Origin: a virus
Taxonomy: Duplodnaviria > Heunggongvirae > Uroviricota > Caudoviricetes
Direction: 5' to 3' (one strand)
DNA: 64,000 bases
IMG/VR virus record: IMGVR_UViG_3300022918_000010
Shown here: positions 10,366-61,960 of the stretch, one piece after another
How positions within the stretch are numbered: position 1 is the first letter of the stretch
How the letters are laid out: every line of letters begins with the position of its first letter
Translations under genes and position numbers: made by a program
The notes under the pieces: model-generated
What the model was told of the DNA's origin: nothing
Databases searched by the model: none
Seen by the model: only the letters and a program-made list of their open reading frames with translations

Positions 10366-10545
10366 ATGAATCTAATTAAAGTAATTTTGGCAATTGTAAT
10401 AATATCTTTTGGTATTATACATATTAGTCAACCATCTAACCTTGAAGTATATATAGGTGTAGGTGAAGTAATAATAGCAATGGTGTTATTATATGGTCCA
10501 ATTAAACAATTAATCAAAAACTTAAACAATGAACAACTTTGATCA
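10366..10545 (+). CDS. small 2-TM membrane protein (59 aa), possible SPFH partner
   Basis: unlisted ORF MNLIKVILAIVIISFGIIH...; its 3' end overlaps the SPFH gene start. Confidence 0.45.
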
Positions 10546-11407
10546 AAAGGAATCAGGTATTCCACAACCAGCTAGAACAATTGTAAAGATTCTAGTACCT
10601 CTTATTATTGCAATTATTATATTAGCAGTACAACCATTTACTTATGAGAATGTCGATGCTGGAAATGTAGGGATTAAATTAAATCTTTATGGAACAAATA
10701 GAGGTGTAGATAAGATCACTATTGTTTCAGGAAGAGTGTGGTATAATACCTGGACTACACGTATTGTGGAATTTCCTACATTCATACAAAATGTAGATTA
10801 CAAACCATTTGCAATTAATACTGTAGATGCTGCTAAATTTAATATTGATACAAAAATGCAATATAGAGTATTGTCAGATTCTGTTCCTAGAATATATACA
10901 ACATTTAGATCTTCTCTACAGGAGATACAAGGTGAAGGTAGATATATTCAAACAGCAGTATATGATGCATTTAAGGCTATTGTACCTAAGTATACATCTG
11001 ACTCATTGATGGCTAAAAGATCTCAATTTGAAAGTGAAGTTGAAGTTGTATTAAAGGAAAAACTTGGTTCCAGAGGTATATATTTAGAACAATTGACATC
11101 TAATATAGATCCACCTAGATCAATGGCTGATGCAATTGAGGCTAAGAATGCTAGTATACAAGCTAGATTTAAAGCTGAGAATCAAGCTAAACAAGCTGTT
11201 GCAGAAGCTACAGTAATTAAAGCTAAAGCAGAAGGTGAAGCAGCTGCTACTATTGTTAGAGCTAAAGCAGAATCTGAAGCTAATAGATTAAAACAAGCTA
11301 CACTTACCCCATTATTAGTTGAGATGGAAAGAATACGCCGATGGGATGGTACATATCCAACTACAGTAGCTGGTGCTGGTACTAACTTTTTAATGCAGTT
11401 AAAATAA
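10529..11407 (+). CDS. SPFH/band-7 (HflC/prohibitin-like) domain membrane protein
   Basis: N-terminal TM; VDAGNVGI...G core; C-terminal Ala/Glu/Lys-rich helix AKAEGEAAATIVRAKAESEA typical of HflK/C. Confidence 0.6.
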   Translation: MNNFDQKESGIPQPARTIVKILVPLIIAIIILAVQPFTYENVDAGNVGIKLNLYGTNRGVDKITIVSGRVWYNTWTTRIVEFPTFIQNVDYKPFAINTVDAAKFNIDTKMQYRVLSDSVPRIYTTFRSSLQEIQGEGRYIQTAVYDAFKAIVPKYTSDSLMAKRSQFESEVEVVLKEKLGSRGIYLEQLTSNIDPPRSMADAIEAKNASIQARFKAENQAKQAVAEATVIKAKAEGEAAATIVRAKAESEANRLKQATLTPLLVEMERIRRWDGTYPTTVAGAGTNFLMQLK

Positions 11408-11416
11408 TTAAACGTA

Positions 11417-11446
11417 AACCTGGGGAGTTGTAAAACAAACCAGGTT
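11417..11446 (+). other. hairpin AACCTGG-loop-CCAGGTT
   Basis: 7-bp inverted repeat in the gap between the SPFH and ATPase genes; no T-run. Confidence 0.3.
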
Positions 11447-11461
11447 AATTAAACTAAAAAC

Positions 11462-12490
11462 ATGGATCAAAAATATTTTAAATCAGGAAATAATTATTTC
11501 CTACGTGAAGTAAGTAATGTAGAAGACCCTCTACAAGTAGCACTATATGTGTTACAATTCTCTCCTAAAGAAGGATTTTATTTAGAGAAATCAGCAGAAG
11601 ATTTTCATGTAAATCATAAAATATATGGTAAAGATGAAAAAGCATTTACAGAACGTGTAAAGAAAACATTTAATGCTACCAAAGATAATCTTGGTGTATT
11701 ATTAAATGGAGTAAAAGGTACTGGCAAGTCAGTTCAATTAAAATTAATAGCTAATCATCTTGAGTTACCTATTATTATTATTCCACAAGCTTATGAAGGT
11801 GTAGCAGATTATATTAGTAAAATACCTTATTCAGTTACTCTTGTATTTGATGAGTTTGAAAAAATGTATCCTGCTAACTATAATAACAATGCTGATATAC
11901 TTACAGTAATGGAAGGTGTACTTGCAAATCAATATAGAAGAGTATTCTTATTGACAACAAATAGCACTTATATTAATGATAATCTTCTAGAAAGACCAGG
12001 AAGAATTAGATATCATAGGACTTATGAAGATCTTCCTTTAGAGACAATAGAGGAGATTGTAGATGATCTACTTGAATATAAAGATCTTAGAACTGCTACA
12101 ATTGATTTCTTATCGACTCTTAAAACTATTACTATTGATATAGTAAAGAAAATTGTTGAAGAGGTTAATATCCATAATGAAGACCCTAAAATCTTTGGTA
12201 AATATTTTAATATCAAAAAAGATAGTAAAAAATATGATGTATTAATCATTAATGAGAATGGTACTGAAAAAGTATGGTTTGAAGATGTAGCTTTACCTGT
12301 TTTTGATCCTAAAAAGCCAATTAAAGATCTTAGAGTAAATGGTGAATGGGAAGCTAAAATTATTAGTATTCTTTCTCCAACTATGTTAATTGTTGATGAA
12401 CAGCTAAATGAAAATAATGAACCAGAAGTTCATATTAAGATTAAAATTGTAGATAGAGATAATCTACATAAATCATTTAGAGTTTTCTAG
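11462..12490 (+). CDS. AAA-type ATPase
   Basis: Walker A GVKGTGKS, Walker B LVFDEFEKM, sensor-1 LLTTN. Confidence 0.6.
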   Translation: MDQKYFKSGNNYFLREVSNVEDPLQVALYVLQFSPKEGFYLEKSAEDFHVNHKIYGKDEKAFTERVKKTFNATKDNLGVLLNGVKGTGKSVQLKLIANHLELPIIIIPQAYEGVADYISKIPYSVTLVFDEFEKMYPANYNNNADILTVMEGVLANQYRRVFLLTTNSTYINDNLLERPGRIRYHRTYEDLPLETIEEIVDDLLEYKDLRTATIDFLSTLKTITIDIVKKIVEEVNIHNEDPKIFGKYFNIKKDSKKYDVLIINENGTEKVWFEDVALPVFDPKKPIKDLRVNGEWEAKIISILSPTMLIVDEQLNENNEPEVHIKIKIVDRDNLHKSFRVF

Positions 12491-16511: not shown

Positions 16512-17675
16512 ATGGCTGAAACACAAGACGAAATTATTGAACAATTAGAAGCTAAGGTTCAAGAATATGAGAATTTATTAGAAGAGACTCTTTCTGATAA
16601 AAAAGGATTTGGTAAGATACTAGCAGGTCCTTTTGATCATGATGGTAAGAAGTATTATAGAGTTTCTATAGGAAGTGATATATCAATGGTATATGCTGCT
16701 GAAGTTAGTATGTTTGATGGATCTCCAATTGATCCAACTTTACCTGAAGAAACAGAAGTTATTGTTGTAGGTCAAACTATAGCATGTGTTGTTCCTGAAG
16801 AACTTAAAGTTATTATCGAACCACCAGTATTTGATCTTATTTCATGGTCTGATATAGGTGGATTTAAATCACAACTTCAAATTATCAGAGATGCTATCGA
16901 ACTTCCTATGGTAAATGCTAAGTTAGCAGAAGAATTGGGTGTTCAACCTATCTGTGGTATTCTTTTATATGGAGCTCCAGGTTGTGGTAAAACATATATA
17001 GCAAAAGCTATTGCATCTACAGTACTTGGTGCAACTAGAATTGATCCACAAGCTTTTCAGTATATGAAAGGTGGTGAGATGTTATCTATGTATGTTGGTA
17101 AAACTGAACAGGATATTAAGAATTCATTTGCACAATGTAGAGATTACACTAAACGTACTGGTAAAAAAGCTATTATGTTTATTGATGAAGCTGAAGCATT
17201 ACTTCCTACAAGAGGTAGCAGAAGATCATCTGATGTAGAAACTACTATTGTACCAACATTCTTAAGTGAGATGTCTGGTTTTGAAGGTAATAATCCAATT
17301 GTTATCTTAGCAACTAATAAAAAAGATGCTATTGATGAAGCCATCCTTAGAGAAGGTAGGATTGATATTAAAATTGAGATCAAACGTCCTACAGAGCCTG
17401 ATGCATTAGAGATCTTTGAGATTCATCTTAAGAAACTTAAAACTCATGATGCTGTTGCAGATTTGGCAGAATTTGCATCTTCATCTTTATTTGGATCACC
17501 TGCTGCTAAGAAAGTTAGTGGAGCTATGATAGAAGCTATCTGTAAAGATGCAATACGTAAAACCATGACTAGAGTAATAGCTACTCCAAAAACTAAGGAG
17601 AAAGGAATAACCTTAGATGATATGTCAAAAGCAATAACAGCAATAAATACATCATATGTCACTACAAAAGCGTAA
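16512..17675 (+). CDS. classic-clade AAA+ ATPase (CDC48/FtsH-type module)
   Basis: Walker A GAPGCGKT, Walker B IMFIDEAEAL, second region ILATNKKDAIDEAILREGRIDIKIEI. Confidence 0.75.
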   Translation: MAETQDEIIEQLEAKVQEYENLLEETLSDKKGFGKILAGPFDHDGKKYYRVSIGSDISMVYAAEVSMFDGSPIDPTLPEETEVIVVGQTIACVVPEELKVIIEPPVFDLISWSDIGGFKSQLQIIRDAIELPMVNAKLAEELGVQPICGILLYGAPGCGKTYIAKAIASTVLGATRIDPQAFQYMKGGEMLSMYVGKTEQDIKNSFAQCRDYTKRTGKKAIMFIDEAEALLPTRGSRRSSDVETTIVPTFLSEMSGFEGNNPIVILATNKKDAIDEAILREGRIDIKIEIKRPTEPDALEIFEIHLKKLKTHDAVADLAEFASSSLFGSPAAKKVSGAMIEAICKDAIRKTMTRVIATPKTKEKGITLDDMSKAITAINTSYVTTKA

Positions 17676-28945: not shown

Positions 28946-28989
28946 GCCATTAAACATTAAATTAAAAAAAAATAAATTAAAAACAAGTT

Positions 28990-30084
28990 ATGGTAACTAC
29001 ACAAAACAAATCAGCATTGAAAGAGAAATTAGCTAAAATTAATGAGAAAGAAATCATTAAACCAGGAACACCTCCTGCTAGTGCAGCAGTAATTGATGCA
29101 TCAAAATTTGTATATATTGATCCAACTAAAAAAGCTTTAGAATTATCTTTTAATTGCAATGAGAATATCATTCTTTATGGTAAAGGTGGACATGGTAAGT
29201 CAGAACTTGTTGAATGGTTTTTACATAACAAAGGAATTACTCCATTTGTTAAAACTATGGGTGCTGGTACTACTACAGAAAGTCTATTTGGTGGTATGGA
29301 TATTAAAAAATTCAATGATACAGGTATGTTAGAGTACTTAGTTGAAAATTCATTCATGAATCATGAGTATGTGATTTTTGAAGAGTTAATGGATGCACCT
29401 GATTATATCTTAGAGCAATTGAAAGATATCATTACTTCTAAGAAATTTAGAAATGGTAGTCAAGTATTCCATATCAAAACTAAACTTATAATCTGCTGTA
29501 CTAACCGTACTAGGGATGAATTCTCTAAAAACGATTCATTAAAAGCATTGATGGAAAGGTTTCCTTTAGAGCAAAAAGTAGAATGGGATTCATATAATAG
29601 AACTACTTACGGATTCATGTTCAAAACACTATTTGGTAAAAACTATAAAACTCTTGAATATATCTTAGAGAAATTAGCTCAAGCAGATAGTATTGTATCA
29701 CCAAGGACTGCTGTTAAAGCAGCTAAAATTCTTGATGCAAATGGAGGTGATTATAGCTGTTTAGAATTTATTGCAGATTTTGCAGGTAAAAACCAGAAAA
29801 TGGTTCAAACTGAAATTGCTAAATACAAAACAGTTGAGCAAGTTGATGTTATTATTGATAGTGTTAAATCTATGATGACTCAATGTGATGCTCTTAAATT
29901 AGATACACTTGATAATATCAAAAATGTTAAAACATTATTGCGTAGTATTGATAGTGAAACTAAAACATTAAAAGCTAAAAAAGTTGATGATGATTTAATG
30001 AAAACTATTAATGCAAACACAAGTCAATTTGAGAATTATTTAGTAACTAAAGGTAAAGAGATTCAACATGCTACAGAAGGATAA
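28990..30084 (+). CDS. MoxR-like (AAA_5-type) AAA+ ATPase
   Basis: Walker A GKGGHGKS; FEELMDAPDYILEQLKDII resembles the MoxR DEINRA...LLEAM segment; paired with a downstream VWA gene. Confidence 0.6.
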   Translation: MVTTQNKSALKEKLAKINEKEIIKPGTPPASAAVIDASKFVYIDPTKKALELSFNCNENIILYGKGGHGKSELVEWFLHNKGITPFVKTMGAGTTTESLFGGMDIKKFNDTGMLEYLVENSFMNHEYVIFEELMDAPDYILEQLKDIITSKKFRNGSQVFHIKTKLIICCTNRTRDEFSKNDSLKALMERFPLEQKVEWDSYNRTTYGFMFKTLFGKNYKTLEYILEKLAQADSIVSPRTAVKAAKILDANGGDYSCLEFIADFAGKNQKMVQTEIAKYKTVEQVDVIIDSVKSMMTQCDALKLDTLDNIKNVKTLLRSIDSETKTLKAKKVDDDLMKTINANTSQFENYLVTKGKEIQHATEG

Positions 30085-31312
30085 TAAGAAGTTTTATATT
30101 AATGACCATGATTGGTATTGGACACCAAGTGAGTGGAATGTTGAGTGGAGATTAAAAATGAGAAAGTTGGGCATTAATAATGTCCACTTTGCTCAAGAAT
30201 TATCTAGATTTTATTATCATAAGATGATTCAAGAAAAAGAATATGTTGATCCATATTTTGCAGATGAAACTAAACTTAATGCATTTGAGTTAGAACAAGC
30301 TAACCAGTCAAAGGAGTTTTATGCAAAAATGTGGGACAAATATGTTCCTGGAATGTCTCCTTTAGATAAGGCTTTAAATTTATTAGCTTTACTAAAGAAA
30401 CAACATGATGCATCTGGTGGAGTTGGTGGTCAAAGAGGAAGAAATGAGTTAATGGATGTAGATATTGAGAAAGCTTTGGAACATGTCCCTGAGAAAGAGA
30501 TATTTGAATCCTCTACTCTAAATGAAATCTTTGATCGTAAAGAAGGTTTGGATGACTTTGATAAGAAAATCAATCTTATGAATAAGATTGCTATGGTTGA
30601 AAAGTTTGGTAAAACCTTTGATGTAAAGAAAATCATCTCTGAGAAAAGAGTAACTAATTCTCGTATACACAAACAGAAAAGAATGGTTGAGTATGAAGAA
30701 TTAATTAATTCTCCTTTGTATCAAAAAATACTTCCTAATTATCAAGCCAAATTAATCAGTAAAGATCTAGTAATTAATACTCCTGTAGTATATGAAGAAT
30801 CTAAACAAAAGATTATTATTTTGGTAGATTATAGTGGTAGTATGTCAATGATACAGAAACAAGACTGGGTTTTATCTATATTAGCAGATAGACTTAGATA
30901 TTGTGTCAAAGAGGAGTGTGAGATTTTCTTTAGTTTCTTTTTAACTGCACGTGATGTAAAGAACAAAAACTTTAAATTCACACACATTTATAATAGAGAA
31001 ACAGCTCTTAAGTTCTTCAAAGAATTGAGTACTGCTCCTTCTGGTGGTGACACTGAAGTTGGACATGTAATTGAATTAATCAGAGAAGAGATTATGGACA
31101 ATAAACGTCTATTTAATCTTGATGTTGATTTATCTTTTGAGAAACCTGAAATCTTAGTGATTAATGATGGTCAAGATAGTGTTAAAACTGATAAGTTAAC
31201 ATGGAAGACCAATGCAATTACCTTATATGGTAATAATCCTGAATTAGAAGCCTTATGTAAAAAGACAGGTGGAAAATTTATATCTATTGATGGTAAACAA
31301 GATCATTACTAA
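30068..31312 (+). CDS. von Willebrand factor A (VWA) domain protein
   Basis: C-terminal MIDAS motif ILVDYSGSMS; coupled to the ATPase. Confidence 0.6.
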   Translation: MLQKDNKKFYINDHDWYWTPSEWNVEWRLKMRKLGINNVHFAQELSRFYYHKMIQEKEYVDPYFADETKLNAFELEQANQSKEFYAKMWDKYVPGMSPLDKALNLLALLKKQHDASGGVGGQRGRNELMDVDIEKALEHVPEKEIFESSTLNEIFDRKEGLDDFDKKINLMNKIAMVEKFGKTFDVKKIISEKRVTNSRIHKQKRMVEYEELINSPLYQKILPNYQAKLISKDLVINTPVVYEESKQKIIILVDYSGSMSMIQKQDWVLSILADRLRYCVKEECEIFFSFFLTARDVKNKNFKFTHIYNRETALKFFKELSTAPSGGDTEVGHVIELIREEIMDNKRLFNLDVDLSFEKPEILVINDGQDSVKTDKLTWKTNAITLYGNNPELEALCKKTGGKFISIDGKQDHY

Positions 31313-31695
31313 TGATCATAAGCTGGTATGGAGAAATCTGTACCAGCTTTTTAATTATGAACAAAAAAGTACCAGTGATTCTTAAAATAGTAAACAAGGA
31401 ATTTGTTGTAGAGTTTGAGGATCAGATTATAAAAATAGAAAATATTGGCTGGGTAAGTGAATCAATCCAAATTATTATGGATCATATACCACGTAAGTAT
31501 AAACCTATTACAGAAGATGATTTAATCAGTATAGTAGAGGATGGAGGTGAGTGTTATCTTGAACTTGTTGAAGTTAGAAATAAAGCTAAAACATGGGAAG
31601 GAAGTGCAATTAATTCATTTACTACAGAAGAACCTATTTACACAGATGAGATAAAATTAATTGAGAACAAAATGGTACTTCACTATAAAAACTAA
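31312..31695 (+). CDS. hypothetical protein
   Basis: ORF track; TAATG overlap. Confidence 0.45.
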   Translation: MIISWYGEICTSFLIMNKKVPVILKIVNKEFVVEFEDQIIKIENIGWVSESIQIIMDHIPRKYKPITEDDLISIVEDGGECYLELVEVRNKAKTWEGSAINSFTTEEPIYTDEIKLIENKMVLHYKN

Positions 31696-35861: not shown

Positions 35862-36599
35862 ATGAAAGTATATATTTATAAAAATAAAGAAATAGAAACT
35901 GATTGGATTTTTGCAGCATATAAAGGTTTTCGGGAATTACAAGCAGAAATTATATTCTTTACTAATGTAAATGATATACCTTATGCTCCTGATAATATAG
36001 TAGTAGCTGATGTAGAACCTACTATTGAATATATGGATAAGCATAATATAAAATATCCAAGACCTTTAAATATACCAGCATGTCTAAGAGAAGATGATTA
36101 TTTACAAAGAAAAGTAAAAACTCTAACACTCAAACAGGTTGCTGCTATTACTACACCTGTCTTTATTAAACCATTTGAAAAAGTTAAACAGTTTTCTTCA
36201 GGTGTTATTAAACATGGATCTAATATTCATTATTTAATTGATCAACCAGATGCTACTGCTGTTTTTGTATCTAATATTATAGATATAGTATCTGAATGGA
36301 GAGGATTTGTATATAATAAAGAATTAGTAGGATTAAAACATTATAGTGGTCAATTTGATAAATTTCCAGATATAGCAATTATAGATAAAATGATTTATAG
36401 ATATAAAGGTTTTGCATATTCTCCTATAGCATATACTATAGATGTAGCAGTAATAAGTACTCCTAATCCTCAAAAAACTGTACTAATTGAATGTAATGAT
36501 TTTTGGAGTATAGGACATTATGGATTAGATCCACTAACATATGCTAAAATGCTAAGAGATAGGTGGTTTCAAATGACAGAATATAGAAAATGGACTTAA
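35862..36599 (+). CDS. ATP-grasp-like enzyme (tentative)
   Basis: VFIKP...EWRGFV...DVAV...VLIECNDFWSIGHYG resembles the ATP-grasp core. Confidence 0.4.
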   Translation: MKVYIYKNKEIETDWIFAAYKGFRELQAEIIFFTNVNDIPYAPDNIVVADVEPTIEYMDKHNIKYPRPLNIPACLREDDYLQRKVKTLTLKQVAAITTPVFIKPFEKVKQFSSGVIKHGSNIHYLIDQPDATAVFVSNIIDIVSEWRGFVYNKELVGLKHYSGQFDKFPDIAIIDKMIYRYKGFAYSPIAYTIDVAVISTPNPQKTVLIECNDFWSIGHYGLDPLTYAKMLRDRWFQMTEYRKWT

Positions 36600-41798: not shown

Positions 41799-42163
41799 TA
41801 GAAAAAGTAAAATTAACCATAACACAATTAATAGAAAATTTAAATTCAGGATTATCTTGGTTAAAAAAAGATGATAATGGAGCTGGTAGTATTCAACAAA
41901 AGTATGAAGCTACTGATATTCAGATACTTACTATACAGAAACATCCAGCATTAAAAGATGTTCAAGTTACTAAATATATATTTGAAATAGTTGATGATAC
42001 TAAGGCTACGGAAGATGTAGAAGAAAAAGTTTGTGATAATCAGGTAGTTATACCAGAACAACCAACTCCTCCTAGTTTAAGAATGGTTAAAGAAGGTGAA
42101 TTATTACAAAAAGGTCCTGGTATATATCTACATTCAGCTGAAGTAGAACAACAATTACCATAA
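41795..42163 (+). CDS. hypothetical protein
   Basis: ORF track. Confidence 0.5.
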   Translation: MIEKVKLTITQLIENLNSGLSWLKKDDNGAGSIQQKYEATDIQILTIQKHPALKDVQVTKYIFEIVDDTKATEDVEEKVCDNQVVIPEQPTPPSLRMVKEGELLQKGPGIYLHSAEVEQQLP

Positions 42164-43254
42164 TGGAACAAACAAAGTCAGATAGATATATAACTATAGA
42201 TACTAATCTTATTAATAAGAAAGAAGTATTCAAAATGCTGGCTTTAGCTCATTCATCTGGATTACCTGTCTTATTGATTGGTAATCCAGGTACTGGGAAA
42301 ACCAGGATAGCATTGGATTATGCTAAAGCATGGATAATGCAGAATATAGATAAGAGTAATAAACAAGAAATGACTCAAGCTTCTAATGACTATATGGATA
42401 AAGTATATATCTTAGAAACTGATGAAGGTACAAAGGCTTCTGAAATCAAAGGTACTCCTGATATAGAAAACATGTTTATTAATAACAAATACTCTTTAAA
42501 TACTCCTATAGCAGATGCAGAAATTATTATTGTTAATGAAATAGATAAAGCCTCTTCTGCTATTAGAAATAGTTTATTAGGTGTTATGAATGAGAAGTTC
42601 ATATTTAATGGTAAAGAGAAAATACCATGTAAATGGAAGCTTTTTATAGGTGCATGCAATGAGATCCCTAAAGAAGAGGAAGGATCACCATTTTGGGATA
42701 GATTTATTCTAAAGAAAGTAGTTAATAGAATATCTTCTTCAGATGTATTAAAATACTATGAAGGTGGAGAAAAGAGTTATAAAGAATATTTTGATATTAA
42801 CATTCCTACTAAAGAAGAGATTGATGATATAGAAGTAAATTCTAAAAAGTTAAATAAGTTTCTTACTGTAAGTTATAATAAATGTTCTGATAGGACTCTT
42901 ACCTTTATTCCAAAGCTTACTAAAATTATCAGTAAAGTATGGGAAGAGAATATAGATAAATCATTAATTAGATTAGCATCTATTATAGTTGGATCTGCTG
43001 CTGCTTCTGAGCTTCATAATAGTTTAATAAGTACTGAAGTAAAAAGTATATTAAATAAAATCGAAGTATTATATACAGTTACTGATCCTGTAGGAATTGA
43101 GGCTCATATGAATGAAATAGAAGCTTTAATTAAAGGTTATACTGCATCTAAAAAGATTGACAGTGATGATCTAATTATAATTGAAGATGCTATTACAGAA
43201 GTAATGAATAAACATCCTAGTAAAGCTCAAAATGATGATGACACACCATTTTAA
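42163..43254 (+). CDS. MoxR-like AAA+ ATPase (second copy)
   Basis: Walker A GNPGTGKT; IIIVNEIDKASSAIRNSLLGVMNEK resembles DEINRA...LLEAMEE. Confidence 0.65.
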   Translation: MEQTKSDRYITIDTNLINKKEVFKMLALAHSSGLPVLLIGNPGTGKTRIALDYAKAWIMQNIDKSNKQEMTQASNDYMDKVYILETDEGTKASEIKGTPDIENMFINNKYSLNTPIADAEIIIVNEIDKASSAIRNSLLGVMNEKFIFNGKEKIPCKWKLFIGACNEIPKEEEGSPFWDRFILKKVVNRISSSDVLKYYEGGEKSYKEYFDINIPTKEEIDDIEVNSKKLNKFLTVSYNKCSDRTLTFIPKLTKIISKVWEENIDKSLIRLASIIVGSAAASELHNSLISTEVKSILNKIEVLYTVTDPVGIEAHMNEIEALIKGYTASKKIDSDDLIIIEDAITEVMNKHPSKAQNDDDTPF

Positions 43255-44608
43255 AAAAGAGTTAGTAAGTCCTTATCTACATGAGATGGATAGTAATGCA
43301 TTAATTAATGCTATTAATGCTTATATCAATGATAATTCTAATAATAAGAAGTTTGTTCAGTTAATAACTAAATATAAGAAGACTGAAATACTTTCTCCAG
43401 ATGATATATTTAATCAAATAAGACAAATCTGGAGATCTTTTCCAAGATCAATTGTCAATGATATATATAATATATATTATAATCATATTGAGAATTTAAA
43501 GTTTGAACAAAGAACAGAACAAAATGGTAGTAAATATAGATTACTTGATAAAGCAAATGATCCTAATATAAAAGTTATTACTAATAATAATAGTATTAGA
43601 TCTATGATCTTTACTAGAGGACTTGTCCAATATTATTTAATTATGTTATCTACTATAGAGCAGTATGATAATGATAGTTTTCATGAGATAATGAAAGATC
43701 TTAAAGATAAAAGTGGATCTGCTGGATTAGAAGAGTTAAATGACTTACTTGAAGAACAAAATAGTTGGAATAAAATTATAAGTAATACTATTGATAAGGA
43801 CTCTAAGGAAAATATTGAAGAACTTTCTAAGATATATACTGAAAATGAGTTACAAGAAATGTGGGAAGAGTTAAAAATAACTACTGTTCCATCAAATGTT
43901 ATTAATAAAATGAATCTTCAAAGTCTTAAATTATTAGGATATGAGCTTAAAAAAGTAACAATGAGTCTTGGTTCTTTACAATCAAGTATTAAAAAGATAC
44001 TTAATAAGTCTATATCTTACTTTTCTTCTAAAGAAGAAGTTATTTATAATAATTTATTAGAAAGTGATAATTTGGATGGTTTAGAAGATTATCATTTACT
44101 TCATCCTAATTTAAAGAAATTATTTATTAATGACATCTTAGTAAAAGATGTAAAAAAAGTAGGTAAGGTAGATCTATATTTAGATGTATCTGGATCTATG
44201 GATGCATGGTCAGGATCTTACAATAAAGAAGGTAAATCAATTACTAAAATACATTTTGCTAAAGCATTCGTATTTAAGATGAAAGAACTAAACCTTATTA
44301 ATGATCTTTATGTTTTTGATACAGTTGTAGATAAGACAGGAAAAAGTATTCATGATATACTTTCTATAGAAAGTGGTGGAGGTACAAATATTAATGAAGT
44401 AGTTAAGCATATATCGAAGATTAATAGAAATGCAATTGTTCTTACTGATGCTGAAGACCATTGCAGTCTATACTCAAAATATACATATTTTATTGGAGTA
44501 AAAGGTGCAAATTTTAGCAGATTTGCTAATGGAGTAAAAAAACAATATGTTGAAAACAAACAAATTATAATATTTGATGGAATTAAAGTAGAAAATGTTG
44601 TTAAATAA
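43232..44608 (+). CDS. VWA domain protein (second copy)
   Basis: MIDAS motif LYLDVSGSMD in the C-terminal third. Confidence 0.6.
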   Translation: MMMTHHFKKELVSPYLHEMDSNALINAINAYINDNSNNKKFVQLITKYKKTEILSPDDIFNQIRQIWRSFPRSIVNDIYNIYYNHIENLKFEQRTEQNGSKYRLLDKANDPNIKVITNNNSIRSMIFTRGLVQYYLIMLSTIEQYDNDSFHEIMKDLKDKSGSAGLEELNDLLEEQNSWNKIISNTIDKDSKENIEELSKIYTENELQEMWEELKITTVPSNVINKMNLQSLKLLGYELKKVTMSLGSLQSSIKKILNKSISYFSSKEEVIYNNLLESDNLDGLEDYHLLHPNLKKLFINDILVKDVKKVGKVDLYLDVSGSMDAWSGSYNKEGKSITKIHFAKAFVFKMKELNLINDLYVFDTVVDKTGKSIHDILSIESGGGTNINEVVKHISKINRNAIVLTDAEDHCSLYSKYTYFIGVKGANFSRFANGVKKQYVENKQIIIFDGIKVENVVK

Positions 44609-44612
44609 TAAA

Positions 44613-44634
44613 GGGAGATATTATTCTCCCTTTT
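44613..44634. terminator. bidirectional terminator hairpin between convergent genes
   Basis: GGGAGA-TATTAT-TCTCCC followed by TTTTCTTT; overlaps the last codons of minus-strand gene 44621-44923. Confidence 0.55.
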
Positions 44635-44923
44635 CTTTAATTTTGTTATCTACATTTATATCTCCAGAATTTGTTGTTGCTACTGGAGTAGGACTGGCAT
44701 TCATAGTTGCTATCAACTCATCCTTTTTATTAGCTCCTTGACTGCTACCGAAGTAATATTGTAATACATTACTCATTGCAGCTACTATAGCAATTATTAC
44801 TTGAGGATCAGCTTTACGTTCATAAAAAGTAATTATAAAGAAATAAGCAAATGAGGATACAATTACTGTTGCTGCTAATATACCTTTAAAGTTATCTGGA
44901 ATCCATTTAAATCCTGTTTCCAT
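44621..44923 (-). CDS. holin-like membrane protein
   Basis: 2 TM plus hydrophilic C-terminus; adjacent to the hydrolase. Confidence 0.45.
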   Translation of the reverse strand: METGFKWIPDNFKGILAATVIVSSFAYFFIITFYERKADPQVIIAIVAAMSNVLQYYFGSSQGANKKDELIATMNASPTPVATTNSGDINVDNKIKEKGE

Positions 44924-45465
44924 TATGATTCATTTGATGATAAAGAACCAGTCTCATTAAGATATATTTTTCTTACACCTGCTGGTTGTGATGTTTTCCA
45001 ATGTGCTCTACGACATCCTTTTAGTCTATCTTTTGCTATAAATGCAAATCCAACAGCATTAGATTGGTTACCACCATATACTAAAAAAGCATTATCATTT
45101 TCTCCAATATAATATCCAACATGTCCACCACCAGGTCTAATAAATACTAAAGTATCTCCAAGAGATTCTTGACCTTTAGGTACAGCATCACCCCATGTTA
45201 ACCATGATAATGCAGAAAGTAGATCATATTTAGGTTTTTCTAACCAACCAGTTCTTTTAGCACATACACCTTTAAATAAACCACACCAAGGTATATCATC
45301 ATCTCCATACCAACCTGATACACCAACTTCTTTGGCCCAACTGGTTATATTAGGATTTGATCCTTTACCTACTTTTTCTAAAGTACCATAATGCTTTAAA
45401 GCTTCTTTTAATTCTAATGGTCCACTTTCTTTAAGTAACCATTGATATTTATTTGGTAGCATCAT
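44923..45465 (-). CDS. phage cell-wall hydrolase, TIGR02594/CHAP-NlpC-P60-like
   Basis: GSNPNITSW...DIPWCGLF...WLTWGDAV...GGGHVGYYIGE...YGGNQSNAV...GCRRA matches the TIGR02594 pattern (Cys/His). Confidence 0.75.
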   Translation of the reverse strand: MMLPNKYQWLLKESGPLELKEALKHYGTLEKVGKGSNPNITSWAKEVGVSGWYGDDDIPWCGLFKGVCAKRTGWLEKPKYDLLSALSWLTWGDAVPKGQESLGDTLVFIRPGGGHVGYYIGENDNAFLVYGGNQSNAVGFAFIAKDRLKGCRRAHWKTSQPAGVRKIYLNETGSLSSNES

Positions 45466-45745
45466 TTTTATCTTTTTGTTCTAATTGATTTAGTTTTTGA
45501 ATTAGAGCCCATTTATCTTTGATGAACTTGAGATATAAATCTCCACCACCAAATATCCAACAGAATATTATTGCAAAACTAAGTACAGATCCTAACCATG
45601 TACGTTGTACTAATGATAATTCTAAGTATCCTTTAGTTATTACTGTAAGTACAGCTATCATGTTTGGTAACAATACAGCAGAAATTGGACGCATTATTTG
45701 TATAAAGCGTAGTAACCAACTTGATTTCTCTTTTTCTGTATTCAT
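45449..45745 (-). CDS. small membrane protein (holin/antiholin-like)
   Basis: 2-3 TM; charged C-terminus. Confidence 0.45.
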   Translation of the reverse strand: MNTEKEKSSWLLRFIQIMRPISAVLLPNMIAVLTVITKGYLELSLVQRTWLGSVLSFAIIFCWIFGGGDLYLKFIKDKWALIQKLNQLEQKDKNDATK

Positions 45746-45747
45746 TA

Positions 45748-46377
45748 TTAACCATCTTGTTTTAATATCTTATATCGGTTACGTTTTTTAAGTCTCAACC
45801 ACTCAAGAAATAGAGTTAAACTAATGAATATGAATCCAAGACCTAATATTAAATATATTGCTAAATCACGTACTGTTATTATTAAGTTAGTCAATCCCTG
45901 TGATATTTTAGTTGCTTCTATATTAGTATTTTCAATTCTATTTACTGCGGATTGTAAAGAATCAATTCTTTTATCTTTAACAATTGATTGTAATAAAGAA
46001 GAATCTCTTTCTGTTGATGCTTTTTGATATTCTAATGTTTCTATATATCTTAAATTATTTATACTGTCTAACCTTTTACTTTGTCTTTGTAAGACGAATG
46101 TTAATGTAGATATATCTTTATAATTTGAGTTTTTTAAATCATCAGTATAAGGTTGTATAATACTAGCTATATATCTCCTAAAGGAAGTATCACGTTGAGC
46201 TTGTTCTTTTTTTGAAAGAGGTTGTCTTTCTACATATTTTATAACTGTATCTTGTTTTAAATGTATTAATGTTGTAGATGGTTTACTTTGTGTAATGCCT
46301 CCTCTTGTAGAAAATGCACAACTTACTACGATACATATAAAAGATACAATTAGTACTTTTTTCATCATTGCTATCAT
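45748..46377 (-). CDS. membrane-anchored coiled-coil protein (N-terminal signal/TM and C-terminal TM)
   Basis: hydrophobic N- and C-termini; could be a spanin-like component. Confidence 0.45.
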   Translation of the reverse strand: MIAMMKKVLIVSFICIVVSCAFSTRGGITQSKPSTTLIHLKQDTVIKYVERQPLSKKEQAQRDTSFRRYIASIIQPYTDDLKNSNYKDISTLTFVLQRQSKRLDSINNLRYIETLEYQKASTERDSSLLQSIVKDKRIDSLQSAVNRIENTNIEATKISQGLTNLIITVRDLAIYLILGLGFIFISLTLFLEWLRLKKRNRYKILKQDG

Positions 46378-46378
46378 A

Positions 46379-46942
46379 TTAGAGAAAAGGGATAAATTTT
46401 TTAAACAAACCTGTCTTTATACCAATCCCCAACAATAATACCAAACCAATGCCAATATATGTAAAGGTTAATTTATTTTTTGCAGATTTTAATTCTAAAT
46501 TTCTTACTTTTAAATTACTTTCTGTAATATTAAGCTGTTTAAGTGCTGTATCTCGTTCTACTTTTAACATAGATTCTAATTTAAGATCTCTAATATTATT
46601 AGTAATTGTTCTAGTAATTAATTTTTCTTTTGTTTTTACTGGATAATCAACTGTTAGAATCCCATTTTTACTAGTTACTGTAGCACCATTACTTGTTTTT
46701 TTAGTAAAATCAGGACATGGGGTATCTACAGTGTCTCTAATAATAGAATCCTTAGTTAAATATGTTATACTATCTTTAGAAATAGTTACAGTATCATTAA
46801 CACAAATCTTTAAATCTTCAATTAAGTACTTTTGTACTGCATTAAATGTTTTAGGATCTGTTTTAATTTTCTTTAAAGTACGATTAACTGAACTACATGA
46901 TGACAATATTAGAAGTAATAGTAGTATTATTGTTGGTTTCAT
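46379..46942 (-). CDS. lipoprotein with C-terminal TM segment
   Basis: MKPTIILLLLLILSSCSS lipobox; C-terminal IGIGLVLLLGIGI. Confidence 0.5.
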   Translation of the reverse strand: MKPTIILLLLLILSSCSSVNRTLKKIKTDPKTFNAVQKYLIEDLKICVNDTVTISKDSITYLTKDSIIRDTVDTPCPDFTKKTSNGATVTSKNGILTVDYPVKTKEKLITRTITNNIRDLKLESMLKVERDTALKQLNITESNLKVRNLELKSAKNKLTFTYIGIGLVLLLGIGIKTGLFKKFIPFL

Positions 46943-46947
46943 GATTA

Positions 46948-47238
46948 TTAAGCTATACTATCAAATAATATAAATTCTCTATATTTACCTTTTGGTCTTT
47001 TCTTAGAAGCAATAAGTGAGTTTGGTAAAACATCACAACAGGCTCCTGATACTTGATAAAAATAATGTAGACCATTAGGATGATATCTACGTGAATCATT
47101 ACCATCTGGTTGATCTGGAGTACCTAAGATTTCAATAAGTTCACATTTACATGGATCTTTAAGGTAACCTCTAAGAGTAGATGGAATAGGGAAGCCCAAT
47201 TCGTCTTTTAATGCAAAATATCTTAATTTTTTTGCCAT
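46948..47238 (-). CDS. Cys-rich hypothetical protein
   Basis: track ORF trimmed to MAKKLRYF start; CKC...CC motifs. Confidence 0.4.
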   Translation of the reverse strand: MAKKLRYFALKDELGFPIPSTLRGYLKDPCKCELIEILGTPDQPDGNDSRRYHPNGLHYFYQVSGACCDVLPNSLIASKKRPKGKYREFILFDSIA

Positions 47239-47247
47239 AATATATAG

Positions 47248-47278
47248 TTTGAATTTAAACTTGAAATGTGTAGATTTG
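47248..47278 (+). promoter_or_regulatory. Bacteroidota-type promoter candidate: TTTG-N19-TAGATTTG
   Basis: -33-like TTTG at 47248-47251 and -7 TAGATTTG at 47271-47278 in the divergent intergenic region. Confidence 0.4.
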
Positions 47279-47344
47279 TGAATAACTTTACAATATAATA
47301 TACTAAAAATCAACTAATAAACCTAAATATATAATAAATAACAT

Positions 47345-61933: not shown

Positions 61934-61960
61934 TGGGGGAGTTAATCCCCCATTTTTATT
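61934..61960. terminator. bidirectional rho-independent terminator between convergent genes
   Basis: TGGGGGA-GTTAA-TCCCCCA perfect 7-bp stem, flanked by T-runs on both strands. Confidence 0.7.

What the first reader, a model, noticed from the sequence alone, without database searches (positions are those of the whole stretch)
28990..31312. MoxR-like AAA+ ATPase / VWA gene pair (copy 1) in a phage genome
A 364-aa ATPase (Walker A GKGGHGKS, MoxR-like FEELMDA...LEQLKDII segment) is translationally coupled to a 414-aa protein whose C-terminal part carries a VWA MIDAS motif (DYSGSMS). MoxR-VWA pairs such as RavA-ViaA, CoxD-CoxE and NorQ-NorD act as chaperone or metal-insertion modules. They are unusual in phages. 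Here the pair occurs twice; see the finding at 42163-44608. The putative Walker B acidic residue appears as E in VIFEEL, which is worth verifying by alignment.
Basis: partly seen in the sequence, partly recalled or inferred. Interest (0 to 1): 0.7.

Follow-up and report, generated by a model that had tools for sequence, protein, structure and literature searches.

The report
Phage MoxR ATPase–VWA chaperone gene pair
An uncultivated ~137 kb phage carries a two-gene ATP-driven motor plus metal-site adaptor module, of the kind bacteria use to remodel or mature protein complexes; the identification is sound and the family is large and phage-only, but the kind of module is already known, including in a few viruses, and its target here is unknown.

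Summary

The two genes are adjacent in 67 of 67 testable viral loci, and a terminator-like hairpin usually follows the pair. The VWA family spans 564 clusters at 50% identity and is absent from 185,579 species genomes, apart from one phage-like MAG contig. No deposited phage has it. Recurrent neighbours are replication and nucleotide-metabolism genes, not virion genes, and there is no conserved third gene.

The Walker B motif is an invariant EE instead of DE. "Copy 2" is not a duplicate. It is a separate, anciently diverged MoxR-VWA lineage (Walker B NE) whose VWA partner has an unrelated N-terminal domain.

The most likely function is a motor-plus-adaptor remodeller acting on an unknown target during the replication phase. 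I rate it a new member of a known kind, of moderate interest.

The parts
28990..30084 (+). Gene for a 364-aa MoxR-class AAA+ ATPase (A1). It has a disordered N-terminus (residues 1-35), an AAA+ alpha/beta core (about 40-200), a lid (about 204-260) and three long C-terminal helices (266-363).
   Evidence: ORF. Pfam bpMoxR 55.6 bits (cutoff 27) and AAA_5 38.8 bits (cutoff 22). The only PDB sequence relative is RavA. AF2 model pLDDT 87.6. Top Foldseek hits are RavA, cso-CbbQ, NorQ and AfCbbQ2.
29179..29202 (+). Walker A motif GKGGHGKS (residues 64-71).
   Evidence: G64, G66, G67, K70 and S71 are invariant in 41 family members. The GxGGxGKS pattern is kept in the paired ATPases of related loci.
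29368..29385 (+). Walker B motif YVIFEE (residues 127-132), with Glu-Glu in place of the canonical Asp-Glu.
   Evidence: It aligns to RavA VFLDEI. E131 and E132 are invariant. EE is present in about 70 of 73 aligned ATPases, including the distant tier.
29443..29505 (+). Beta-hairpin before sensor 1 (residues 152-161), the sensor-1 strand, and sensor-1 Asn172.
   Evidence: The AF2 secondary structure shows strands 152-155, 158-161 and 166-171. R154, G156 and N172 are invariant.
29557..29559 (+). R190 in the invariant LMERF motif, at the arginine-finger position.
   Evidence: Invariant. LMERFP occurs in 65 of the aligned ATPases. It aligns with RavA 'LYDRM'.
29698..29706 (+). S237-P238-R239 in the lid, at the sensor-2 arginine position.
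   Evidence: Invariant. An SPR motif is present in almost all aligned ATPases. The assignment as sensor 2 rests on its position in the lid helix and is an inference.
30068..30084 (+). 17-nt overlap of the ATPase and VWA genes (ATG at 30068, TAA at 30082-30084).
   Evidence: Sequence. In 67 of 67 testable related loci the ATPase is immediately upstream on the same strand, with a gap of -89 to +20 nt; a 1-nt overlap is the commonest arrangement.
30068..31312 (+). Gene for the 414-aa VWA partner (V1).
   Evidence: ORF. 265 homologues found. AF2 model pLDDT 88.4, pTM 0.77.
30068..30622 (+). V1 N-terminal helical domain (residues 1-185). It is acidic (pI 5.6), has no fold or sequence match, and is the presumed target-specificity domain.
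30623..30802 (+). V1 basic segment before strand beta-1 (residues 186-245, pI 9.5). It comprises a beta-hairpin (188-205), short helices, and the outer half of a 20-residue strand that runs straight into the MIDAS Asp. It is a candidate 'finger' that would dock in the ATPase pore.
   Evidence: Secondary structure. The segment is densely conserved (K188, S198, P223, K232, K246-I250 invariant). It is the only region outside the VWA core that aligns between the V1 and V2 families. pI. The finger role is inferred from NorQD (PMC13036017, PMC9976466) and was not shown here.
30803..31312 (+). V1 VWA domain (residues 246-414) with its MIDAS site: D254-x-S256-x-S258 (nt 30827-30841), T329 (nt 31052-31054) and D367 (nt 31166-31168).
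31320..31356 (+). Terminator-like hairpin (13-bp stem, 4-nt loop, T-rich tail) 8 nt after the V1 stop codon. It probably marks the end of the bicistronic unit.
   Evidence: A hairpin of -13.6 kcal/mol or stronger follows the VWA gene in 72% of 58 distinct loci, against 17% of 400 other gene ends (Fisher p 1.5e-17). The stems are unrelated in sequence.
42163..44608 (+). The second, non-orthologous MoxR-VWA pair: A2 at 42163-43254 and V2 at 43232-44608. It is a related but separate module.
   Evidence: ORFs. A2 scores 78.5 bits on bpMoxR. The V2 MIDAS residues D318, S320, S322, T385 and D406 are invariant. Profile comparison with V1 gives E 3.3e-5 over the VWA core only. The Walker B motif NE is conserved.

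Best explanation
The two genes form a self-contained bicistronic module that encodes a MoxR-class AAA+ motor (A1) and its dedicated VWA/MIDAS adaptor (V1).

Shown here:
- A1 has the MoxR-class fold and all nucleotide-handling residues, so it is probably an active ATPase.
- V1 has a VWA domain with a complete, invariant metal-ion-dependent adhesion site.
- The two genes are always adjacent and usually overlap, and a terminator-like hairpin usually follows them.
- The family is restricted to phages.
- The pair sits among replication and nucleotide-metabolism genes.

Inferred by analogy with NorQ-NorD, CbbQ-CbbO and RavA-ViaA:
- A1 forms a hexameric ring and one V1 docks on it.
- V1 probably docks through the conserved basic beta-segment (residues 186-245) that leads directly into the MIDAS strand.
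- The MIDAS metal captures an acidic side chain on a target protein.
- The family-specific N-terminal helical domain provides target specificity.
- ATP hydrolysis pulls or twists the adaptor to remodel, mature or release the target.

My commitment on biological role: it is a non-virion, early or middle infection factor. It acts on a cytoplasmic protein complex, either a phage replication or nucleotide-metabolism complex or a host complex. The second pair in the genome, with an unrelated N-terminal domain, would serve a different target.
For: - **ATPase class:** Pfam bpMoxR and AAA_5 pass threshold. RavA is the only PDB sequence relative (1.2e-7 with the single sequence, 6.9e-10 with the profile). 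The AF2 model (pLDDT 87.6) matches RavA, cso-CbbQ, NorQ and AfCbbQ2 best, with target-normalised TM about 0.7 for NorQ.
- **Catalytic residues:** Walker A, EE, N172, R190 and SPR239 are invariant.
- **Obligate pairing:** 67 of 67 loci, and also in the distant tier and in the MAG contig. There is no conserved third gene.
- **Unit boundary:** a hairpin follows the pair.
- **Phage restriction:** one phage-like hit in 185,579 species genomes, against 71 IMG/VR loci and 564 clusters at 50% identity.
- **Context:** the recurrent identifiable neighbours are helicase, UDG, DnaB, polymerase, primase, thymidylate synthase, exonuclease, sigma factor and ParB.
- **Mechanistic precedent:** the NorQD cryo-EM work shows a VWA finger in the AAA+ pore, and its authors propose this as general for MoxR/VWA couples (PMC13036017, PMC9976466).
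- **Control:** a genuine RavA-ViaA pair behaves the same way in these tools. RavA hits bpMoxR, ViaA hits VWA_CoxE and VWA_2, and the two genes overlap by 7 nt.
Against: - No target was identified, and nothing in the neighbourhood is a conserved candidate substrate.
- The Walker B Asp that normally coordinates Mg2+ is Glu, so normal ATPase activity is assumed rather than shown.
- V1 itself is below Pfam's VWA thresholds (14.9 bits against 27).
- Gene position among replication genes is only circumstantial evidence about timing and role.
- Hexamer formation and 6:1 stoichiometry are pure analogy.
Confidence: 0.72

Rival explanations
1. It is a virion-assembly chaperone. The pair would help fold or assemble tail or other structural proteins, as shown for p618/p892 of Acidianus two-tailed virus and as proposed for the MoxR-vWA pair of group 2.2 jumbo phages.
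For: The closest viral ATPase relatives by tblastn are the bicaudavirus and monocaudavirus MoxR ATPases. Published precedent exists in PMC4124505 (ATV) and PMC7824862 (jumbo phages). The molecular machinery is the same as in the best explanation.
Against: Similarity to the archaeal ATPases is only 26-28% and is confined to the AAA core. Across 71 loci, none of the recurrent neighbours that could be identified is a virion gene; all of them are DNA, RNA or nucleotide-metabolism genes. V1 has no peptidase domain, unlike the jumbo-phage partner (PMC7824862). In phage 0305phi8-36 the analogous pair also lies in the non-structural arm and can be deleted (PMC2147016, PMC3357382).
Confidence: 0.13
2. 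It is a conflict module. The pair would be an anti-defence or superinfection-exclusion device related to the MoxR-vWA ternary conflict systems, from which the Pfam family bpMoxR takes its name. It would capture and dismantle a host immune complex or a competitor's protein.
For: The best Pfam match is bpMoxR. The family is phage-only, diverse, and shifts position among poorly conserved small early genes. Two non-orthologous pairs with different specificity domains sit in one genome. These features are typical of arms-race genes. The framework is in PMC7159879.
Against: The bpMoxR model is not specific to conflict systems, because housekeeping RavA scores 187.8 bits on it. The defining third component (beta-propeller, VMAP or FtsH) and the effector domains are absent. 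There are no PADLOC matches. The protein sequences are well conserved (about 40-75% identity across the family, with invariant motifs), not hypervariable.
Confidence: 0.1
3. It is a metal-insertion or chelatase-type module like CobS-CobT, BchI-BchD or NorQ-NorD. It would load a metal cofactor into a phage or host enzyme, for example one of nucleotide metabolism.
For: NorQ and NorD are among the closest structures to both partners. The MIDAS site is intact. CobS-type genes are annotated in phages as PHROG 249, 'porphyrin biosynthesis'. The neighbourhood is nucleotide metabolism.
Against: A1 does not match PHROG 249, and A2 matches it only at 0.0028. No conserved neighbour was identified as a CobN-like or ChlH-like third subunit or as a candidate metalloenzyme. 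The Mg_chelatase Pfam model is not matched by A1.
Confidence: 0.04
4. A1 is a degenerate, catalytically inactive ATPase that serves only as a scaffold, because its Walker B motif lacks the canonical Asp.
For: The Walker B motif is hhhhEE in this family and hhhhNE in the copy 2 lineage.
Against: The catalytic Glu, the Walker A Lys and Ser, the sensor-1 Asn, the ERF arginine and the SPR arginine are all invariant over hundreds of diverged sequences. That is the signature of selection for hydrolysis. Asp to Glu keeps the carboxylate.
Confidence: 0.01

Closest known systems
RavA-ViaA (E. coli and Salmonella MoxR AAA+ ATPase and its VWA partner)
   Same: RavA is the only solved protein found by sequence and the top fold match, with 314-323 aligned columns that extend past the AAA+ core. 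The gene order is the same, ATPase first and then the VWA protein, with overlapping genes (7 nt in Salmonella, 17 nt here). The partner architecture is the same, a helical N-terminal part followed by a C-terminal VWA domain. ViaA hits the same Pfam models, VWA_CoxE and VWA_2, that V1 relatives hit.
   Different: It is not an orthologue. A1 scores 36.6 bits against a cutoff of 681 on the RavA NCBIfam model. At 364 aa it is too short to hold the extra domains of the 509-aa Salmonella RavA, and it matches none of that protein's LARA, RavA_C or AAA_lid_8 models. Its Walker B motif is EE, not DE. The V1 family against ViaA gives only E 0.0015 and probability 17%. The family is phage-restricted.
NorQ-NorD and CbbQ-CbbO (MoxR motors with VWA adaptors that mature nitric oxide reductase or reactivate Rubisco)
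   Different: Sequence similarity is undetectable. No NOR or Rubisco genes are present. V1 is much smaller than NorD (about 70 kDa, PMC9976466). The pore-inserting finger is only suspected in V1.
Viral MoxR-VWA pairs: ATV p618/p892, SMV1 ORF588, Bacillus phage 0305phi8-36 orf66/orf63, and group 2.2 jumbo phage MoxR with peptidase-vWA
   Same: These are virus-encoded pairs of a MoxR ATPase and a VWA protein. The archaeal-virus and 0305phi8-36 ATPases are the nearest relatives in deposited viral genomes. The 0305phi8-36 VWA partner gp63 likewise escapes every Pfam model. That pair also lies in the non-structural arm of its genome (PMC2147016).
   Different: Identity is only 23-31% and is confined to the AAA core. 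No deposited virus has a detectable relative of V1 or V2. The ATV proteins are larger and are virion or tail-associated (PMC4124505). The jumbo-phage partner carries a metallopeptidase domain (PMC7824862). In 0305phi8-36 the two genes are separated by two small ORFs.
MoxR-vWA ternary conflict systems (Kaur, Burroughs, Iyer and Aravind 2020; source of Pfam PF20030 bpMoxR)
   Same: The ATPase passes the PF20030 threshold, and it is coupled to a vWA protein with both MIDAS aspartates.
   Different: There is no third component and no effector. The family is found in phages, not in the genomes of multicellular prokaryotes. PF20030 also captures RavA, so the match does not indicate a ternary system.

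Membership tests
MoxR-class AAA+ ATPases (AAA+ clade with a helix-2 insert and a pre-sensor-1 hairpin) | Passes curated profile thresholds for MoxR-type AAA+ domains | tested here: met
   PF20030 bpMoxR scores 55.6 bits (cutoff 27) and PF07728 AAA_5 scores 38.8 bits (cutoff 22). All 120 listed homologues carry PF20030, and nearly all carry PF07728 as well.
MoxR-class AAA+ ATPases (AAA+ clade with a helix-2 insert and a pre-sensor-1 hairpin) | Walker A GxxGxGK[ST], a Walker B acidic pair with the catalytic Glu, sensor-1 Asn, arginine finger and sensor-2 Arg | tested here: met
   GKGGHGKS, FEE (E131, E132), N172, R190 and R239 are all invariant. There is one deviation: the first Walker B acid is Glu, not Asp.
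MoxR-class AAA+ ATPases (AAA+ clade with a helix-2 insert and a pre-sensor-1 hairpin) | Beta-hairpin immediately before the sensor-1 strand | tested here: met
   The AF2 model has strands 152-155 and 158-161 directly before strand 166-171, which is followed by N172.
MoxR-class AAA+ ATPases (AAA+ clade with a helix-2 insert and a pre-sensor-1 hairpin) | Insert in helix 2 of the AAA+ core | tested here: inconclusive
   Residues 90-124 align with RavA's corresponding region and are the most conserved part of the protein. The model shows an interrupted helix with bridging residues. Coordinates could not be inspected.
MoxR-class AAA+ ATPases (AAA+ clade with a helix-2 insert and a pre-sensor-1 hairpin) | Closest structures are MoxR-class members rather than McrB, classical AAA or clamp loaders | tested here: met
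   The Foldseek top 12 are RavA, cso-CbbQ, NorQ and AfCbbQ2. McrB is not among the 50 listed matches.
MoxR-class AAA+ ATPases (AAA+ clade with a helix-2 insert and a pre-sensor-1 hairpin) | Hexameric ring with ATPase activity | not testable with these tools
   This needs biochemistry or a multimer prediction.
RavA proper (NCBIfam NF010054 equivalog) | Full-length score above the curated cutoff, with LARA and RavA C-terminal domains | tested here: not met
   It scores 36.6 bits against a cutoff of 681. There is no LARA_dom, ATPase_RavA_C or AAA_lid_8 hit, whereas Salmonella RavA hits all three.
VWA (von Willebrand factor A) domain with a MIDAS site | Alpha/beta Rossmann-like VWA fold | tested here: met
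VWA (von Willebrand factor A) domain with a MIDAS site | MIDAS motif DxSxS...T...D | tested here: met
   D254, S256, S258, T329 and D367 are invariant in 46 sequences.
VWA (von Willebrand factor A) domain with a MIDAS site | Passes a curated Pfam VWA threshold | tested here: not met
   V1 scores 14.9 bits on VWA_2 and 12.8 bits on VWA_CoxE, both below the cutoffs. Of the family members, 14 of 46 hit VWA_CoxE weakly and 12 of 46 hit VWA_2 weakly. Two distant relatives do pass: P0349 with VWA_2 at 27.4 bits and P0357 with VWA_CoxE at 30.2 bits. The fold and motif evidence outweighs this sequence-threshold failure.
MoxR-partner VWA adaptors (NorD, CbbO, ViaA type) | Encoded next to a MoxR ATPase and co-oriented with it; N-terminal specificity domain followed by a C-terminal VWA domain | tested here: met
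   Adjacency holds in 67 of 67 loci and in the distant tier. The architecture comes from the model.
MoxR-partner VWA adaptors (NorD, CbbO, ViaA type) | Beta-sheet 'finger' that protrudes from the VWA domain, joins the MIDAS through one strand and enters the ATPase pore | tested here: inconclusive
   A 20-residue strand (235-254) ends at the MIDAS D254, is preceded by a hairpin at 188-205, and is basic and conserved. NorD gives the longest alignments. No coordinates or complex model were available.
MoxR-partner VWA adaptors (NorD, CbbO, ViaA type) | Orthology to ViaA | tested here: not met
   hhalign of the V1 family against Salmonella ViaA gives E 0.0015 and probability 17%, covering the MIDAS region only.
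MoxR-vWA-beta-propeller / VMAP / FtsH ternary conflict systems | A conserved third component and effector domains in the operon | tested here: not met
   No gene cluster is conserved at positions -2 or +1 to +8. The neighbours have no Pfam domains. There are no PADLOC hits.
CobS-CobT / Mg-chelatase type ATP-driven chelatases | ATPase matches CobS or ChlI models; a large CobN or ChlH subunit is present | tested here: not met
   A1 has no hit to PHROG 249 or to Pfam Mg_chelatase. No large conserved neighbour was found in the flanks that were searched. The rest of the 137 kb genome was not examined.
ATV-type virion tail-development chaperone (p618/p892) | Virion-associated proteins that interact with tail proteins | not testable with these tools
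   Only remote similarity over the AAA core was found (26-28% identity). The genomic context is non-structural.

The most novel reading that the evidence does not exclude
This may be the founding example of a large, phage-exclusive class of MoxR-VWA remodellers. Its marks are an invariant Glu-Glu Walker B motif and a new N-terminal specificity domain, and it is embedded in replication modules. On this reading, its job is to seize and remodel a host or phage replication, nucleoid or immunity complex, which would be a new category of ATP-driven host-takeover or anti-defence machine. Different phage lineages would carry alternative adaptor types (V1-type or V2-type) against different targets, and some, like this phage, would carry both.
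Probability: 0.15. Interest if true: 0.7.

Novelty: new member of a known kind. Interest (0 to 1): 0.4.

Why it matters
MoxR-VWA modules are widespread but poorly understood remodellers. A target is known for only a few, such as nitric oxide reductase, Rubisco, lysine decarboxylase and fumarate reductase, and the ATV tail.

This work defines a very large, phage-restricted subfamily: at least 564 VWA clusters at 50% identity, and 813 ATPase hits among the 90%-identity clusters. Current phage and domain libraries do not capture the adaptor, which has no PHROG family and falls below Pfam thresholds. The subfamily is tied to replication modules of uncultivated phages of about 110-140 kb, whose hosts are probably Bacteroidota.

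It supplies a compact, well-modelled pair (41 kDa and 49 kDa) for testing whether the finger-in-pore mechanism is general. It also offers a natural experiment on the Walker B motif, with Asp replaced by Glu in one lineage and by Asn in the other. Finding the target would show what phages need such a motor for. Without the target, this remains a well-annotated instance of a known kind of module.

Tried and rejected
- **Nucleotide search of 50,697 phage records:** no match.
- **tblastn of V1 and V2 against the same records:** no match.
- **PADLOC defence models:** nothing for A1, V1 or V2, and only marginal hits for A2.
- **PHROGs:** no family for either VWA partner.
- **AFDB50 fold search:** the library was unavailable. 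Full-length cellular structural relatives of V1, and any match to its N-terminal domain, could therefore not be sought there.
- **Single-sequence scan of viral contigs with V2:** nothing. The profile scan then found 199 relatives, so the earlier count of 28 homologues underestimated that family.
- **Recent duplication of the two pairs:** rejected.
- **RavA orthologue:** rejected.
- **Ternary conflict system:** rejected for lack of a third gene, and because RavA itself hits bpMoxR.
- **Cellular origin or prophage:** rejected. The only genome hit is a 31% GC contig in a CPR MAG that carries the same ATPase-VWA pair.
- **Sigma-70 promoter scan:** fewer sites than in shuffled sequence, so uninformative.
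- **Hairpin at the ATPase/VWA junction as a regulator:** present in many relatives but not in this window, so it is not part of this locus.
- **Neighbouring genes as candidate substrates or partners:** none is conserved.
Full report
**Observation**

One runs from 28990 to 30084 (364 aa) and the other from 30068 to 31312 (414 aa), both on the + strand. The start codon of the second lies 17 nt inside the first (…caacATGctacagaaggaTAA…). The window is 28% G+C and a stop codon is expected at 9.4% of codons. Open frames of this length are therefore expected about 1e-11 to 1e-13 times by chance. The quoted motifs are all present.

The window is phage. It carries a DnaB-like helicase, primase, exonuclease, DNA polymerase and a second helicase that match PHROG families. 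It also carries UDG, an R2K ATP-grasp protein, a glucosaminidase and further AAA proteins. It is part of a 136,668 bp metagenome contig. No deposited phage is close at the nucleotide level, and the DNA polymerase is at most about 35% identical to that of any cultured phage.

**The ATPase (A1)**

A1 passes Pfam's thresholds for bpMoxR (55.6 bits against 27) and AAA_5 (38.8 bits against 22). RavA is the only solved protein that sequence searches detect (1.2e-7 with the single sequence, 6.9e-10 with a 41-member profile).

The AlphaFold model built on that alignment is confident (pLDDT 87.6). It shows four parts:
- an AAA+ core;
- a beta-hairpin (residues 152-161) directly before the sensor-1 strand;
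- a lid;
- three long C-terminal helices.

The best fold matches are RavA, carboxysomal CbbQ, NorQ and AfCbbQ2, with target-normalised TM about 0.7 for NorQ. RuvB and NtrC-type ATPases follow, and McrB is not among the 50 listed matches.

Invariant positions in the family are G64, G66, G67, K70 and S71 (Walker A), E131 and E132, N172 (sensor 1), R190 in LMERF (arginine-finger position) and S237-P238-R239 (sensor-2 position).

RavA's Walker B motif VFLDEI aligns with VIFEEL, so the canonical Asp is Glu. This is a family hallmark. About 70 of 73 aligned paired ATPases have EE, including two distant-tier proteins. Every residue needed for hydrolysis is under strict conservation, so I consider the enzyme active. 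That is an inference.

A1 is not RavA itself. It scores 36.6 bits against a cutoff of 681 on the RavA equivalog model. It also lacks the LARA, RavA-C and AAA_lid_8 domains that a real Salmonella RavA shows in the same scan.

That control also shows that Pfam's bpMoxR model captures RavA at 187.8 bits. The model's name ('MoxR-vWA-beta-propeller ternary systems') therefore says nothing about the kind of system.

**The partner (V1)**

V1 itself reaches only sub-threshold scores on VWA_2 and VWA_CoxE and has no PHROG family. It has 265 homologues in the large protein collection. In an alignment of 46 of them, down to 36% identity, the complete MIDAS signature is invariant: D254, S256, S258, T329 and D367, along with G326, G327 and G368.

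An exhaustive profile search of 1.84 billion cluster representatives found 564 clusters (381 at E <= 1e-10). Two distant members pass Pfam's own VWA thresholds. The second refutation criterion, no VWA fold, is therefore also not met.

The N-terminal half (residues 1-185, helical, acidic) has no detectable relative of known structure.

Between it and the VWA core lies a basic (pI 9.5), densely conserved segment (residues 186-245). It consists of a beta-hairpin, short helices, and the outer half of a 20-residue strand that runs straight into the MIDAS Asp.

**The pairing**

Of 71 related loci recovered from IMG/VR, 67 include DNA upstream of the VWA gene. In all 67 the ATPase homologue is the immediately preceding gene on the same strand. 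The gap ranges from -89 to +20 nt, and a 1-nt overlap is the commonest arrangement.

The same holds in three other places:
- three distant-tier relatives, one of them on a 183 kb contig;
- the only hit among 185,579 species genomes, a 31% G+C contig binned into a CPR MAG;
- adjacent genes 98 and 99 of one NCBI contig.

No third gene is conserved on either side, and the immediate neighbours have no recognisable domains.

Eight nucleotides after the V1 stop codon lies a 13-bp-stem hairpin with a T-rich tail (31320-31349). An equivalent hairpin, with an unrelated stem sequence, follows the VWA gene in 72% of 58 distinct loci, against 17% of 400 other gene ends (Fisher p 1.5e-17). The unit is therefore two genes, co-translated and probably co-terminated.

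**Distribution and context**

The family is essentially confined to phages. It is common in metagenomic viral contigs of about 110-142 kb. It is absent from cellular genomes and from all 50,697 deposited phage records.

Only 10 of those records (with A1) or 27 (with A2) contain even a remote ATPase relative. These are the Acidianus and Sulfolobus tailed-spindle viruses, Bacillus phage 0305phi8-36, two Campylobacter phages, an Aphanizomenon phage and a few fragments.

Across the related loci the pair changes its exact slot but always sits in the replication and nucleotide-metabolism region, near the helicase, UDG, DnaB or polymerase. All the large recurrent neighbours that could be identified belong to that functional class: homing endonuclease, exonuclease, sigma factor, ParB-like protein, thymidylate synthase, primase and primase-helicase. 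None is a virion protein.

**Relation to 'copy 2'**

The pair at 42163-44608 is real but is not a copy.
- **ATPases:** A1 and A2 share 27% identity over 116 residues.
- **VWA partners:** V1 and V2 have no BLASTP similarity. Their family profiles align only from the segment before strand beta-1 through the VWA core, with the three MIDAS segments in register (E 3.3e-5, probability 72%).
- **MIDAS:** V2's own MIDAS site is invariant.
- **Walker B:** the A2 lineage has NE, conserved in its relatives.
- **Synteny:** the order is fixed as helicase, UDG, A2, V2, a divergent lysis cassette, then DnaB and primase.
- **Spread:** V2-type pairs are also widespread, with 199 IMG/VR relatives.

None of the 16 listed V2-type contigs over 100 kb appears among the 23 V1-type contigs over 100 kb. 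This comparison is limited by the pattern-based scans. By contrast, this phage, two close relatives (contigs of 136,320 and 140,966 bp) and L062 carry both types. In L062 the two pairs are three genes apart. These are two anciently separated adaptor-motor systems, which fits two different targets.

**Mechanism**

What is shown:
- the MoxR-class fold with conserved catalytic residues;
- the VWA fold with an intact MIDAS site;
- obligate adjacency and overlap;
- the unit boundary;
- phage restriction;
- the replication-module context.

What is inferred comes from established work on NorQ-NorD, CbbQ-CbbO and RavA-ViaA (PMC9976466, PMC13036017, PMC4660213):
- a hexameric motor binds one adaptor;
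- a finger on the VWA domain enters the pore and contacts the helix-2 inserts;
- the MIDAS metal binds an acidic residue of the target;
- the unrelated N-terminal domains confer specificity;
- ATP hydrolysis twists or pulls the adaptor to remodel the target.

V1's conserved basic beta-segment, which joins the MIDAS through one long strand, fits the published description of the finger, and it is the only extra region shared with V2. I could not inspect coordinates or model the complex, so this step stays inconclusive.

I commit to a non-virion factor that acts on a cytoplasmic complex during the replication phase (confidence 0.72 for the molecular mechanism). The identity of the target is unknown.

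**Rivals**
- **Virion or tail assembly chaperone,** as in ATV (PMC4124505) or as proposed for jumbo phages (PMC7824862). It uses the same machinery, but the consistently non-structural neighbourhood and the missing peptidase domain disfavour it.
- **Conflict or anti-defence role.** The data do not exclude it, and it is the most interesting reading. The ternary-system hallmarks are absent, and the bpMoxR match is non-specific.
- **Chelatase or cofactor-insertion role.** No third subunit or metalloenzyme partner was found in the flanks examined.
- **Dead ATPase.** This is contradicted by the conservation pattern.

**Novelty and score**

MoxR-VWA modules are a known kind, and a handful of viral examples have been published: ATV, 0305phi8-36 (where the pair can be deleted, PMC3357382) and jumbo phages. 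This locus is a new, well-supported member.

It represents a large, phage-only subfamily that had not been catalogued. Its own N-terminal domain, the unusual EE Walker B motif and the co-residence of two non-orthologous pairs set it apart. It is solid and moderately interesting, but it is neither a new kind of system nor a surprise to a specialist. Interest is 0.4.

Noticed in passing
window 42163-44608: The second MoxR-VWA pair belongs to a different lineage. Its Walker B motif is hhhhNE (IIIVNEID), conserved in relatives. Its VWA partner has an unrelated N-terminal domain. It occupies a fixed slot between UDG and a divergent lysis cassette. V2-type relatives number 199 in IMG/VR, and they seem largely confined to contigs that lack a V1-type pair.
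   Followed up: partly
L002-L072, first ~6-60 nt of the annotated VWA ORFs (e.g. L054 from 7836, L021 from 7998): In 44 of 62 relatives, a strong and often perfect hairpin (down to -28 kcal/mol) lies just after the ATPase stop codon, inside the annotated 5' end of the VWA ORF. Those ORFs encode N-terminal extensions, apparently rich in Gly, Tyr and Trp, that the window's V1 lacks. The window's own junction has no such hairpin (best -9.4). It could be an attenuator that sets the ATPase:adaptor ratio, or the true start codons may lie downstream of it.
   Followed up: partly
window 31312-31695: The start of the downstream gene is ambiguous. The longest ORF starts at 31312 and overlaps the V1 stop codon (TAATG). 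The terminator-like hairpin at 31320-31349 lies inside that extension, and the metagenome gene caller starts the gene at ATG 31357 (112 aa). The gene is not conserved next to the pair in other phages.
   Followed up: partly
window 10529-12490: Another two-gene unit that includes an ATPase: an SPFH/Band 7 protein (PHROG 200 'lipoprotein', Pfam Band_7 1.2e-21) followed by an AAA protein (PHROG 2376). SPFH homologues recur within 8 kb of the V1-type pair in about 14-16 related loci.
   Followed up: no
window 16512-17675: A classical AAA ATPase (Pfam AAA, 1.3e-30) with an N-terminal region of about 140 aa of unknown function. Counting A1, A2 and the 11462-12490 protein, it is the fourth AAA-type ATPase in this 64 kb window.
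   Followed up: no
window 44621-47313 (minus strand): A block of six minus-strand genes in an otherwise plus-strand window. None has a Pfam hit. The block is syntenic with an amidase/holin cassette (L080) and an M15 peptidase cassette (L078) in relatives. The 46379-46942 product starts with what looks like a lipoprotein signal (MKPTIILLLLLILSSCSS), and several of the other products have hydrophobic stretches. It is probably the lysis cassette.
   Followed up: partly
L078 12039-17000 (minus strand); window 28946-28989 and 30040-30067: Clues to the host. A relative encodes a 1,653-aa protein with SprB repeats, a domain of the gliding-motility adhesin SprB. No Shine-Dalgarno sequence is evident upstream of A1 or V1, where the leaders are A/T-rich. 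Both point to a Bacteroidota host.
   Followed up: no
L073 (VFLE01000014.1, 'Candidatus Shapirobacteria' MAG): The only 'cellular' hit for the V1 family is a 21 kb, 31% G+C contig that carries the same ATPase-VWA pair (45% and 32% identity) among small ORFs. It is probably a phage contig that was binned into the MAG by mistake.
   Followed up: partly
window 61956-63968 (minus strand): A 670-aa ORF on the minus strand with no PHROG or Pfam match. The GC skew changes sign in this part of the window.
   Followed up: no
window 35862-36599: An R2K-clade ATP-grasp protein (Pfam R2K_2, 4.5e-33) lies between the two MoxR-VWA pairs.
   Followed up: no
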